NCBI RefSeq assembly: GCF_003334385.1 | Contig: NZ_QOWN01000092.1 | Strand: one strand, 5' to 3' | Source: Escherichia coli | GTDB lineage: Bacteria > Pseudomonadota > Gammaproteobacteria > Enterobacterales > Enterobacteriaceae | Length of the DNA: 3,496 nucleotides | Shown: positions 1-3,000 of the stretch, piece after piece | Layout: each line of letters begins with the position of its first letter | Position numbering within the stretch: the stretch's first letter is position 1 | Position numbers: made by a program

Positions 1-3000
1 GGCGCACCTGGTGCAGTGGGGCCCGCAGGCCCACGGGGACCGGCTGGTGCAGCTGGTCCCAAAGGTGATGCAGGCCCGGCAGGGCCACGAGGTGAAAGGG
101 GACCTGCGGGGGCACAGGGTGTTCCGGGGCCGGTTGGTCCGGCAGGTCCTGCGGGTAAAACGGGGCCACGAGGTTTGCAGGGAGAAACAGGAAGACAGGG
201 CCCGACAGGTCCACAGGGCCCGACAGGTGAACCCGGACCACAGGGACCACAAGGGCCAACCGGAAGGCTGGTACCCGGGGAAATTTACAGCATCGGAACA
301 TACATTATTGCCGCACTAGCCCCGTATACAACCGACATCGGCAGAACCTATCAGCCAGGAGAAACTGTACAGGGTTCACGCCTTAAGCGATGCGCCATAA
401 TCAAAGATGCAAGCGGGAACTATATGAAAGCTAACACCGATGGCATTGACGGCAGACTATCCTCAGTTCCGGGGTCATGGATGGTGTGTAATGAAATTAC
501 GTCGACAAATGACAATGAAGGCATCGGGCTGTTCCAGCGCGCATACTGACAGACAGGAGATGACATGAATGTGGAAAAAAATAAGCAATCCGCAATGGGC
601 AGATAAAGATCACACTGCTGTGAATTGCATGGTGAAGTTTGAGCACATTGAGCAGGCGGTTCCTTTCACTGCAACAGCCAGCGATACCGAAGCATACGGG
701 CGGGATATTTATGCCGCTTGTCTGAGAGGAGAGGCCGGTGAAATTGCAGAATATGTACAGCCATCCATCAGCCCGGAAAAAGCCAGAGAACTCAAAACCG
801 CCGGGATCAACGCCTGGCGTAATGCGATGGAAGCGGCGAACTACACGTTTGAGCACAATGGGCGTAAATGGGACTACGGGAAGTCAACGCAGACGCGTCT
901 TGAGCCGTCGGTGGCTGCCGCGAAAGCAGGAATACTGCCGGAGGGTTTTTTCTGGACGGATGCGGAGAATAACGACGTCCCGATGACGGCAGAGGCGCTG
1001 ATGGCACTCAGTGAGGCGGCGGAGAAGGCGATGTTCACCAAAGGGATGGAAATTCACGTACAGCAGCGCAACATGAAGAAGGCACTGGAAGCGCTGAACA
1101 GTGCGGATGAGATTCTGGCGTATAAGGTGGGTCAGGAGTCGTAAATAAAAAAACGGGGGTGATGCCTCACCTCCTCTTTCGTCAATAGAGGATTACTGCA
1201 ATCGTTTTTTTATTGTGAAACAGATTCTGCAATAACCGCCAGGCATATTCAGTGATGCCTGTCACACGCTCCGGAACGCGGATGGCAGCGGCATGTCAGA
1301 AAACGATTAATATTATTAATACATCGAAAAAAAATCAGAATGTGGTGGTTATCACATTATTAAGCGTAAGGAACTGTGTCATAAGTGCGCGAGGGAAATA
1401 AGCGAAACGACAGCATGCGGTGTGGAGCGTGAATAATGGCGGGGATGACGGATATCACCGACTGTACAGTACGATAATTCCTAAAAAGTTTATATTCATT
1501 TTTGCGAATAATCCTGGAATAAGCTGACAGGAAGCAGCCAGTTATCAGATTTTCTTTAGTGTATCTGAAGTGCGTCTGAGAGGGTTGCTTTTTTTGTATA
1601 CAAAGAAATTACAGGATATCCATAATGAGTAAAAAATTCACAAAGACACTTCTATCATCTTCTCTGGGTGGGCTTCTGCTTGGGATCAGCTCAGGTGTTT
1701 TAGCTCAGGAGTTACCTCCTATCAAAGATTCTGGTTTGCCTTCTTATTCAGTGCTGAAAGAGGCAGATGCTAAGTCTGTTATACACGGTAGTACTTATCG
1801 TATTTACTATAACAAATCCTCTGGTTGGGGAACAATGCGATATGTTCTGGACGGAAATGATAAGACCCTTTTTAATTTCGATCAGGAGGGTAATATTATA
1901 GTATTGAGTAAAGATAACTCAATTGCATATACCGTTCATGAGCCTGTGCTAAAAGACTTCGCCCGTATGGCAGCAGGCCTCAGAACGTCTGGCACAGAAA
2001 ACGGTAAGCATAAGGTTGATGAGGAGGAGGTCCGCCGGATCTTCAATAAAGTTAATAACTTATCAAATACAATTATTAATCCTGATTTATTTAAAAGCTC
2101 GGATTTTATTTCCTCTGGATCTGCTCCAGAAAATGACCCTGTAGTTCCTGCCAGTGCAGAAGGTGTGTTTGCGTTTGCGACTGGACAAGGTGCCAAGGCG
2201 AATGGATATATAGCAACAGCAGTGGGCTCATGGGCTGCTGCGGACGGTAAACAAAGTACAGCTCTGGGAGGGGGAGCATATGCCTATGCAGATGCTTCAA
2301 CAGCCGCCGGAACAGCTGCTTATGTTGATGGTTCTGCTATTTATGGTACCGCTATAGGTAATCACGCAAAAGTGGATAAAAATGCAACTGAAGGTGTTGC
2401 ATTAGGAGCCAAAGCAATATCTGCACATAAAAACAGTGTGGCCTTAGGGGCAAACTCCCGAACCACTCGTGATAATGAAGTTTACATTGGTTATGAAGAG
2501 GCTTCTGGTAAAGCATATAAAACCCGCACCCTTGGAGGATTGACTGATGGAACTCGCCCATCCGATGCAGCAACTGTTCGTCAGGTTGATCGGGTAAAAG
2601 ACAGTGTTGAGCAACTGGCTCAGGATACGAATACCCGCCTTGTAGTCGAAGCGAAAAAGTCTCGTGAATATACAGACTCCAGAACGACAGTTGGTGTGAA
2701 CCCTGACGGAAAACTTACCCGTGCAGAAGGTGCGACTAAAACTATCGCCGTCAATGATGGTCTCGTTGCTCTGTCTGGCAGAACAGACCGTATTGATTAT
2801 GCAGTTGGTAGCGTTGACCGCCGGGTTACTAAAAATACACAGGCTATTCAGTCCAATACTCGCCAGTTGCAGGAGCATAATGCACGCCTGAACAGCCAGC
2901 AGCGTCAAATTCGTGAGAATCACGAAGAGATGAAGCGTGCAGCAGCACAGAGTGCAGCGCTGGCGGGGCTTTTCCAGCCGTACAGTGTGGGGAAATTCAA

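What the first reader, a model, noticed from the sequence alone, without database searches (positions are those of the whole stretch)
1306..1320. Perfect 15-bp AT-only palindrome in the spacer
ATTAATA-T-TATTAAT is a perfect 7-bp inverted repeat around a single central base, located about 20 bp upstream of CRP-like site B. Such symmetric AT elements are typical operator half-site pairs for dimeric regulators and are also preferred nucleoid-protein (H-NS/Fis/IHF) targets. It contains TATTAAT, so it could alternatively be a -10-like element.
Basis: seen in the sequence. Interest (0 to 1): 0.3.

Follow-up and report, generated by a model that had tools for sequence, protein, structure and literature searches.

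The report
Chance AT palindrome upstream of eib
The 15-base AT-only palindrome is really there, but it looks like an accidental symmetry inside an AT-rich stretch in front of a prophage adhesin gene (eib); the nearby CRP-type binding site, not the palindrome, is what evolution has kept.

Summary
ATTAATA-T-TATTAAT lies at 1306-1320, in the 480-bp spacer between a prophage tail-fibre-assembly-like gene (569-1144) and an eib immunoglobulin-binding adhesin gene (1625-3151).

It is not statistically remarkable. A perfect dyad with arms of at least 7 bp appears in 32% of shuffles of the window and 7% of shuffles of the spacer.

It is not selectively conserved:
- In 19 copies of the same upstream block (93-100% identical), 43% of all 15-nt windows are at least as invariant.
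- The outer pair is broken (A to G at 1306) in 3 of 19 copies, with no compensating change.
- The dyad is absent from the other eib upstream types (eibA, eibC, eibD, eibE and EibA-like loci).
- The exact word otherwise turns up only in unrelated, very AT-rich viral genomes.
- It forms no stable hairpin, matches no IHF, Fis or H-NS motif, and gives only weak -10-like scores.

What is conserved across all eib upstream types is the CRP-like core 20 bp downstream (1341-1356), together with 75-82% A+T in the 40 nt before it.

Best reading: an incidental symmetry within an AT-rich tract that may offer generic minor-groove contacts (H-NS, RNA polymerase alpha subunit). A dedicated operator is unlikely. 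Interest is low.

The parts
1306..1320 (.). 15-bp A/T-only perfect dyad ATTAATA-T-TATTAAT (the finding)
   Evidence: Searches show the sequence. One search gives the chance rates (32% of window shuffles, 7% of spacer shuffles). Searches show no special conservation, with A to G at 1306 in 3 of 19 copies.
1301..1340 (.). 40-nt AT-rich tract (82% A+T) just upstream of the CRP-like core. It contains the dyad and an A8 run (1326-1333). Richness in A+T, not the sequence, is shared with the other eib upstream types.
   Evidence: 0.82, 0.80 and 0.75 A+T in the window, EibE and EibA types, against 0.59-0.68 for the whole spacers; only 16% of flank positions are identical in all three types.
1341..1356 (.). 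CRP-like site B, TGTGG-TGGTTA-TCACA. Its core is conserved in all eib upstream types, 256-276 bp before the ATG.
   Evidence: 2 sites found against 0.10 expected. Searches show a site in every type; 8/10 half-site positions identical in all three types, 0/6 in the N6 spacer, and P about 0.0015 per type of a chance site at that position.
1251..1266 (.). CRP-like site A, aGTGA-TGCCTG-TCACA, found only in this upstream type, 90 bp centre-to-centre from site B
   Evidence: It is weakened (AATGAC...) in the SCU-171 copy.
1215..1460 (+). Subtype-specific upstream block that carries the dyad. It is found in 15 of 5426 complete E. coli genomes, phage GER2, 1 viral contig and 7 metagenome contigs, always in front of an eib gene.
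   Evidence: annotations
1625..3151 (+). eib gene, encoding a 508-aa YadA-like trimeric autotransporter and immunoglobulin-binding protein. It is the gene the spacer presumably regulates.
   Evidence: source name 'Immunoglobulin binding protein'; 73% identity to EibE
1155..1174 (.). G+C-rich stem-loop immediately after the tfa-like gene. It marks the upstream boundary of the eib cassette and has the better U-run on the minus strand.

Best explanation
The dyad is an incidental symmetry inside a short A/T-only run. It is not a dedicated protein-recognition element.

It belongs to a roughly 40-nt tract of about 80% A+T immediately upstream of a conserved CRP-type site, in the regulatory spacer of a prophage 'moron' gene (eib). 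If it does anything, it acts through the tract as a whole. The tract is TpA-rich, narrow-minor-groove DNA. It could take non-specific minor-groove contacts from H-NS (silencing of this horizontally acquired gene) and/or from the RNA polymerase alpha C-terminal domain next to bound CRP.

Shown here: the sequence, its chance level, its lack of selective conservation, its absence from the other eib upstream types, and the conservation of the CRP-like core and of A+T richness.

Inferred, not shown: any binding of H-NS, the alpha subunit or CRP, and the position of the eib promoter.
For: - Chance level: 32% of window shuffles and 7% of spacer shuffles contain an equal or better dyad.
- Conservation: the 19-copy alignment has 25 variable columns of 219. 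43% of all 15-nt windows have at most 1 variable column, like the dyad, and longer invariant runs exist elsewhere (38, 29 and 23 nt).
- Symmetry is not maintained: 1306 is G in 3 of 19 copies while 1320 stays T.
- The block carrying the dyad is absent upstream of eibA, eibC, eibD, eibE and three EibA-type chromosomal loci. Each of those has a different, or no, A/T dyad elsewhere.
- The exact 15-mer occurs in more than 120 viral contigs with median G+C of 24%, none related to the window.
- No hairpin: -1.9 kcal/mol, z = -0.77.
- The CRP-like core and A+T richness upstream of it are the features shared by the three diverged upstream types.
- H-NS prefers A/T-only DNA with several TpA steps (PMC4466236). 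The dyad has 4 TpA steps in 15 bp.
[quoted passage not shown] That behaviour is typical of H-NS-silenced foreign genes (established knowledge, an inference here).
Against: - The 14-nt core 1307-1320 is invariant in all 19 copies while variable sites lie close on both sides (1300, 1306, 1321, 1322, 1328). With only 12 haplotypes at 93-100% identity, weak constraint cannot be excluded.
- Within the spacer alone the dyad is mildly unusual (P about 0.07).
- It lies between two CRP-like sites that are themselves more than chance, a place where auxiliary regulators often bind.
- No binding or expression data exist for this spacer in the papers that could be read.
Confidence: 0.6

Rival explanations
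1. The dyad is the operator of a dimeric helix-turn-helix regulator, host- or prophage-encoded. The regulator would bind between the two CRP-like sites and modulate CRP-dependent eib transcription in this upstream subtype only.
For: Perfect 7-1-7 symmetry. It lies between two CRP-like sites that exceed chance. The 14-nt core is invariant in 19 copies. Eib expression is strongly condition-dependent: static against shaken culture, temperature, medium (PMC4352079, PMC5450701).
Against: No special conservation against background. The outer pair is broken in 3 of 19 copies without compensation. It is absent from the other eib upstream types, although those Eib proteins show 'very similar regulation of expression' (PMC5450701). 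No second copy or auxiliary half-site lies in the spacer; the only other TATTAAT is inside the eib coding region at 2074. The neighbouring ORF-156 has no recognisable DNA-binding domain.
Confidence: 0.12
2. The dyad supplies the -10 hexamer of a weak, activator-dependent promoter. One option is the + strand: TAATAT 1308-1313 or TATTAT 1311-1316, which puts CRP-like site A near -61 to -65. The other is the - strand: AATAAT/TAATAT 1317-1310, which puts site B near -43 to -46 and gives an antisense transcript ending at the minus-oriented terminator 1171-1158.
For: TATTAT is 5/6 to TATAAT. In a heuristic matrix scan, hexamers within the dyad rank among the better -10 candidates of the spacer on both strands, at 7.4-7.9 bits against a best of 9.2. 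The distances to the CRP-like sites are near class I and class II spacings (arithmetic). A stem-loop followed by a U7 run exists on the minus strand at 1171-1145.
Against: The consensus scan reports no promoter here. The -35 partners are poor: GCGGCA 3/6, CTGATT, TTCTGA. Any A/T palindrome scores as -10-like on both strands. A + strand start at about 1320 would put CRP site B at about +28, an odd position for an activator site that is conserved family-wide. The other eib types have no equivalent hexamer at that distance. No Rfam family matches the spacer.
Confidence: 0.12
3. The dyad is coding sequence of a small ORF: 1252-1401 (49 aa, GTG start), or the 38-codon ORF annotated in phage GER2.
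For: The ORF is listed. The GER2 record annotates a 'hypothetical protein' over the equivalent of about 1319-1435.
Against: GER2 carries a 1-nt deletion at 1328, so the two ORFs are in different frames. The GER2 ATG is ATA in the window. There is no PHROG match. RefSeq annotates nothing here in 10 genomes.
Confidence: 0.02

Closest known systems
AT-rich, TpA-rich tracts bound by the xenogeneic silencer H-NS upstream of horizontally acquired virulence genes
   Same: A/T-only, with 4 TpA steps in 15 bp and an adjacent A8 tract. It lies upstream of a low-G+C prophage cargo gene that is poorly expressed and temperature-dependent (PMC4466236; PMC4352079).
   Different: No match to the 10-bp high-affinity H-NS motif TCGATAAATT within 2 mismatches at the dyad, and no enrichment of that motif in the window. 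H-NS binding was not tested. The tract is short (about 40 nt) and the spacer overall is only 59% A+T.
A+T-rich DNA upstream of CRP sites at CRP-dependent promoters (contacts of the RNA polymerase alpha C-terminal domain; UP-element-like DNA)
   Same: It lies 13-43 bp upstream of the centre of a conserved TGTGN-N6-TCACA core. High A+T at that position is shared by three diverged eib upstream types.
   Different: The promoter served by the CRP-like site has not been located. The UP-element consensus was not tested. The dyad itself sits further from the site than the A8 run, which would be the more usual alpha-subunit contact.
VirB/ParB-type sites (virS/parS): near-perfect 7-bp inverted repeats separated by one nucleotide, e.g. 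ATTTCAGtATGAAAT at the Shigella icsP promoter (PMC6410309)
   Same: Identical geometry (7-1-7, 15 bp, begins ATT and ends AAT). The context is a silenced, horizontally acquired virulence gene. The known eib co-activator IbrB is, from my memory, a ParB-like protein; this was not verified with the tools.
   Different: Only 3 of 7 half-site positions agree, and the G/C positions of (A/G)(A/T)GAAAT are missing. The ECOR-9 eib loci reported to respond to IbrAB lack this dyad and share no other dyad with the window.
AT-only 'stem_loop' features annotated by the depositors upstream of eibC, eibD and eibE (AF151674-6: TAAATTTATAAAATTAATTTTTAAATTTA, 112-117 bp before the ATG)
   Same: Also an A/T-only inverted repeat in the tfa-eib spacer of an eib prophage.
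   Different: Different sequence and different position (112 bp against 311 bp before the ATG). The window has no intact dyad at the equivalent place. An alignment fold across types gives no covariation.

Membership tests
Palindromic operator of a dimeric transcription factor | Dyad symmetry of two half-sites at fixed spacing | tested here: met
   Perfect 7-1-7 at 1306-1320, but within chance expectation.
Palindromic operator of a dimeric transcription factor | Both half-sites preserved above background in orthologous promoters | tested here: not met
   43% of 15-nt windows in the block are equally invariant. A to G at 1306 in 3 of 19 copies, uncompensated. Absent from the eibA/C/D/E and EibA-type loci.
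Palindromic operator of a dimeric transcription factor | Recurrence of the motif at other promoters of the regulon or in related elements | tested here: not met
   No other copy with up to 2 mismatches in the window. The block is found only in front of eib genes.
Palindromic operator of a dimeric transcription factor | Binding by a cognate regulator | not testable with these tools
   Needs EMSA or footprinting.
H-NS high-affinity / nucleation site | A/T-only DNA with multiple TpA steps | tested here: met
   4 TpA steps in 15 bp and the longest A/T-only run of the window. The preference is described in PMC4466236.
H-NS high-affinity / nucleation site | Match to the 10-bp motif TCGATAAATT (motif recalled from my own knowledge of Lang et al. 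2007) | tested here: not met
   No match with up to 2 mismatches inside the dyad. One hit overlaps its 3' edge (1318-1327, minus strand). The window has 4 hits against 2.8 expected.
H-NS high-affinity / nucleation site | H-NS occupancy and hns-dependent expression | not testable with these tools
   Needs ChIP or an hns mutant.
IHF or Fis site | Match to WATCAANNNNTTR (IHF) or GNNYAWWWWWTRNNC (Fis) | tested here: not met
   No hit overlaps 1306-1320 with up to 1 mismatch, and the counts are at or below expectation.
Sigma-70 promoter -10 element | Hexamer close to TATAAT with A2 and T6 | tested here: met
   TATTAT 1311-1316 (5/6). AATAAT and TAATAT on the minus strand.
Sigma-70 promoter -10 element | -35 hexamer at 16-18 bp, or an extended -10 TG | tested here: not met
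   Not reported by the consensus scan. The best partners are 3/6 or worse, and there is no TG.
Sigma-70 promoter -10 element | Mapped transcription start | not testable with these tools
   None of the papers that could be read maps an eib promoter. Sandt et al. 2002 and Lu et al. 2006 are not held.
VirB/ParB-type 7-1-7 site | 7-bp inverted repeats with a single-nucleotide spacer | tested here: met
   Geometry identical to ATTTCAGtATGAAAT (PMC6410309).
VirB/ParB-type 7-1-7 site | Half-site (A/G)(A/T)GAAAT | tested here: not met
   TATTAAT against ATGAAAT: 3/7 by direct comparison of the sequences.
CRP site (neighbouring element 1341-1356, not the dyad) | TGTGA-N6-TCACA core, conserved in orthologous promoters | tested here: met
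   9/10 core match. 2 sites against 0.10 expected. Present in all upstream types, with 8/10 core positions identical in three types against 0/6 spacer positions and 16% of flank positions.

The most novel reading that the evidence does not exclude
The 7-1-7 dyad is a virS/parS-like loading site for a ParB-family anti-silencer, the natural candidate being IbrB of the IbrAB island, the known co-activator of eib genes. It would counteract H-NS on this particular eib upstream subtype. The geometry is exactly that of the Shigella VirB site, but the half-site sequence differs, and the IbrAB-responsive ECOR-9 loci lack the dyad.
Probability: 0.03. Interest if true: 0.6.

Novelty: not a real feature. 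Interest (0 to 1): 0.1.

Why it matters
As a palindrome it matters little. Showing that it is ordinary removes a false lead.

The useful by-product concerns eib regulation, which is still unexplained in the papers I could read. All diverged eib upstream regions keep a CRP-type core 256-276 bp before the start codon. The two published low-expression media both contain 1-2% glucose. This turns 'complex regulation' into a directly testable hypothesis of catabolite control, possibly combined with H-NS silencing. It also suggests that the conserved 170 bp or so before the ATG is a transcribed leader.

Tried and rejected
- Rfam scan of the whole window at E up to 1: nothing.
- Hairpin or cruciform: -1.9 kcal/mol, z = -0.77.
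- IHF, Fis and H-NS consensus scans: no hit on the dyad.
- Small-ORF reading: the frame is not conserved and there is no PHROG match.
- Regulator next door: ORF-156 has no Pfam or NCBIfam match.
- A conserved stem-loop about 110 bp before the ATG, suggested by the depositors' stem_loop features: no covariation across types.
- Species-representative genomes: the block's 20-mer anchor gave 0 hits, so no diverged copies outside E. coli were obtained.
- Viral-contig scan for the bare 15-mer: only unrelated AT-rich genomes.
- Minus-strand small-RNA idea (promoter in the dyad, terminator at 1171-1145): the fold z-score of -2.6 comes mostly from the terminator structure. A minus-oriented terminator after the tail genes is expected anyway where convergent lambdoid operons meet (the expectation is from general knowledge). 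Not pursued.
- Papers that might map the eib promoter (Sandt et al. 2002, PMC135156; Lu et al. 2006, PMC1594913) are not held.

Full report
WHAT THE WINDOW IS

The 3496 bases are the tail end of a lambdoid E. coli prophage. They contain:
- the C-terminus of a collagen-repeat tail fibre (16-549);
- a DUF4376 tail-fibre-type gene equivalent to 'ORF-191' of the P-Eib phages (569-1144);
- a 480-bp spacer;
- a 508-aa YadA-like trimeric autotransporter of the Eib immunoglobulin-binding family (1625-3151);
- the start of an 'ORF-156' homologue (3240 onward).

The Eib protein is 99% identical to that of strain JNEC-KY204 and 73% identical to EibE. It has the length I recall for EibG, but that assignment was not verified with the tools. 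A stem-loop follows the tail gene (1155-1174) and another follows eib, so eib has the layout of a self-contained prophage 'moron'.

THE OBSERVATION

Window 1306-1320 is ATTAATATTATTAAT, a perfect 7-bp inverted repeat around T1313. It sits inside the longest A/T-only run of the window, 1306-1321.

IS IT MORE THAN CHANCE?

No. A perfect dyad with arms of at least 7 bp and a spacer of 0-1 appears in 32.5% of dinucleotide-preserving shuffles of the window and in 7.0% of shuffles of the spacer. Given a 16-nt A/T-only run, the probability is about 4%. The window contains two further 6-bp-arm dyads. As single-stranded DNA the dyad folds at -1.9 kcal/mol (z = -0.77), so a cruciform or hairpin role is not credible.

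COMPARATIVE EVIDENCE

The part of the spacer that carries the dyad (about 1215-1460) is a subtype-specific block. It was found in:
- 15 of 5426 complete E. coli genomes (19 places);
- phage GER2;
- one IMG/VR contig;
- seven metagenome contigs.

Wherever annotation was read, it lies between the DUF4376 gene and an eib gene. It was not found in any species-representative genome.

In the 19 copies aligned (12 haplotypes, 93-100% identical), 25 of 219 columns vary. The dyad has one variable column. Position 1306 is G in 3 copies, which breaks the outer pair, and 1320 does not change to compensate. Of all 15-nt windows in the block, 43% are at least as invariant, and invariant runs of 38, 29 and 23 nt exist elsewhere. 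So there is no sign of selection on the dyad or on its symmetry. With such similar sequences, though, weak constraint cannot be excluded.

The upstream regions of eibA, eibC, eibD and eibE (ECOR-9), and of three EibA-type chromosomal loci, do not contain the block or the dyad. They align with the window only over roughly the last 170 bp before the ATG. Each type has its own A/T-rich dyad somewhere else. One is the depositors' 'stem_loop' TAAATTTATAAAATTAATTTTTAAATTTA, 112 bp before eibC/D/E. Another is AAATTCGGAATTT, 110 bp before eibA. These have no shared sequence with the window's dyad. At their own position, an alignment fold across the upstream types finds no covarying structure.

Published work reports 'very similar regulation' of EibG and of the ECOR-9 and ECOR-2 Eib proteins (PMC5450701). 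A regulatory element private to one upstream type is therefore not needed to explain the known behaviour.

The bare 15-mer occurs in more than 120 viral contigs, but these have a median G+C of 24% and none is related to the window. It is simply a common word in AT-rich DNA.

MOTIF TESTS

- No IHF or Fis consensus match overlaps the dyad.
- The H-NS 10-mer motif does not match within the dyad and is not enriched in the window.
- The consensus promoter scan finds nothing at the dyad.
- A heuristic matrix scan gives mid-ranking -10-like hits on both strands, as any A/T palindrome must, with poor -35 partners.
- The half-site TATTAAT recurs only once outside the dyad, inside the eib coding region.
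- The overlapping small ORFs are not conserved in frame.
- ORF-156, the constant neighbour of eib, has no recognisable domain.

WHAT IS CONSERVED INSTEAD

A CRP-type core (TGTGA-N6-TCACA with at most 1 mismatch) occurs twice in the window, both times in this spacer, against 0.10 expected; 1 of 200 shuffles reaches 2.

Site B (1341-1356) has a counterpart in every eib upstream type at nearly the same distance from the ATG:

| Upstream type | Distance of site centre before the ATG (bp) |
|---|---|
| Window | 276 |
| eibC / eibE | 256 |
| eibD | 261 |
| EibA-type (perfect core) | 264 |

The surrounding sequence is barely alignable. Anchored on the site, 8 of 10 half-site positions are identical in three types, against 0 of 6 N6 spacer positions and 16% of flank positions. 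The chance of such a site at that position is about 0.0015 per type. Within the 19 copies, variation in site B falls on the N6 spacer or on the already non-consensus fifth base.

The 40 nt upstream of the core are 75-82% A+T in all three types, against 59-68% for the spacers as a whole. The shared property is therefore A+T richness next to a CRP-type site, not a dyad.

In line with catabolite control, the two media in which EibG drops 'considerably' both contain glucose (M9 with 1%, yeast-extract medium with 2%), and LB gives the highest levels (PMC5450701). The authors attributed the drop to nutrient deprivation. The CRP reading is my inference.

MOST LIKELY MECHANISM

The dyad is an accidental symmetry in an AT-rich tract. 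The tract may contribute generic minor-groove contacts. H-NS favours A/T-only DNA with several TpA steps (PMC4466236), and the dyad has four. EibG is poorly expressed and falls at lower temperature (PMC4352079), as is usual for H-NS-silenced foreign genes. The alpha subunit of RNA polymerase could also use such DNA beside CRP. These binding steps are inferred, not shown. I put this at about 0.6.

The rivals are:
- a subtype-specific operator (0.12);
- a -10 element on either strand (0.12);
- coding sequence (0.02).

COMPARISON WITH KNOWN SYSTEMS

The geometry (7-1-7) equals that of the Shigella VirB site ATTTCAGtATGAAAT (PMC6410309). The known eib co-activator IbrB is, as I recall, ParB-like. 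But only 3 of 7 half-site positions agree, and the IbrAB-responsive ECOR-9 loci lack the dyad. This stays a low-probability lead (about 0.03).

VERDICT

The operator interpretation is not supported, and the generic 'AT-rich target' interpretation remains possible. The dyad is not a discrete feature in its own right, and its interest is low (0.1). The conserved CRP-like site and the glucose correlation are the more useful leads from this window.

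Noticed in passing
window 1341-1356 (also L001 706-721, L003 706-721, L004 1982-1997, L143 1389-1404, L144 1389-1404): A CRP-type core TGTGN-N6-TCACA is kept in every eib upstream type, 256-276 bp before the ATG, while its N6 spacer and flanks have diverged. The two published low-EibG media both contain 1-2% glucose (PMC5450701). This suggests catabolite (cAMP-CRP) control of eib genes and a long 5' leader.
   Followed up: partly
window 1251-1266: A second CRP-like site (AGTGA-N6-TCACA), 90 bp upstream of the first. It is present only in this upstream subtype and is weakened in the SCU-171 copy.
   Followed up: partly
window 1144-1214: The stem-loop after the tail gene (GGGGGTGA/TCACCYCC) has a far better U-run on the minus strand (T7) than on the plus strand. 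It is enclosed by 12-nt perfectly complementary A7/T7 arms (1144-1155 and 1203-1214). The eibC/D/E type also seems to have a minus-oriented terminator at this place, but I judged that by eye from the alignment, not with a scan. It probably marks where convergent late and leftward phage operons meet.
   Followed up: partly
window 1593-1604: A perfect 12-bp palindrome TTTGTATACAAA lies 25 bp before the eib ATG. Its core TGTATACA is invariant in all eib upstream types (alignment A1), inside the most conserved part of the spacer.
   Followed up: no
window 1215-1624 compared with loci L005-L014: The same upstream block, 97-100% identical in these loci, precedes eib alleles of 354-517 aa that share only 43-99% protein identity with the window's. 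The break point is at the start codon (GGATATCCATAATGAGT against GGATATATCAGATGAAC). The regulatory block and the passenger domain therefore recombine independently.
   Followed up: partly
L006 506-2808 (E. coli SCU-171), equivalent to window ~1234: An IS21-family ISEc12 element is inserted in the spacer just upstream of CRP-like site A. It separates the tail gene from the eib regulatory block, which is otherwise retained.
   Followed up: no
window 1448-1460 (GGATATCACCGAC), also in EibA-type loci as GTGATATCACCGAC: The point where the window type and the EibA type begin to align contains TATCACCG, identical to a lambda operator half-site (my recollection). In the EibA type it forms a 10-bp palindrome GTGATATCAC. 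The second half-site is missing in the window, so this is probably coincidence.
   Followed up: no
window 3240-3496 and L005 6026-6496: ORF-156, which follows every eib gene, has no Pfam or NCBIfam match and only an unknown-function PHROG (phrog_6585). Its constant linkage to eib is unexplained.
   Followed up: partly
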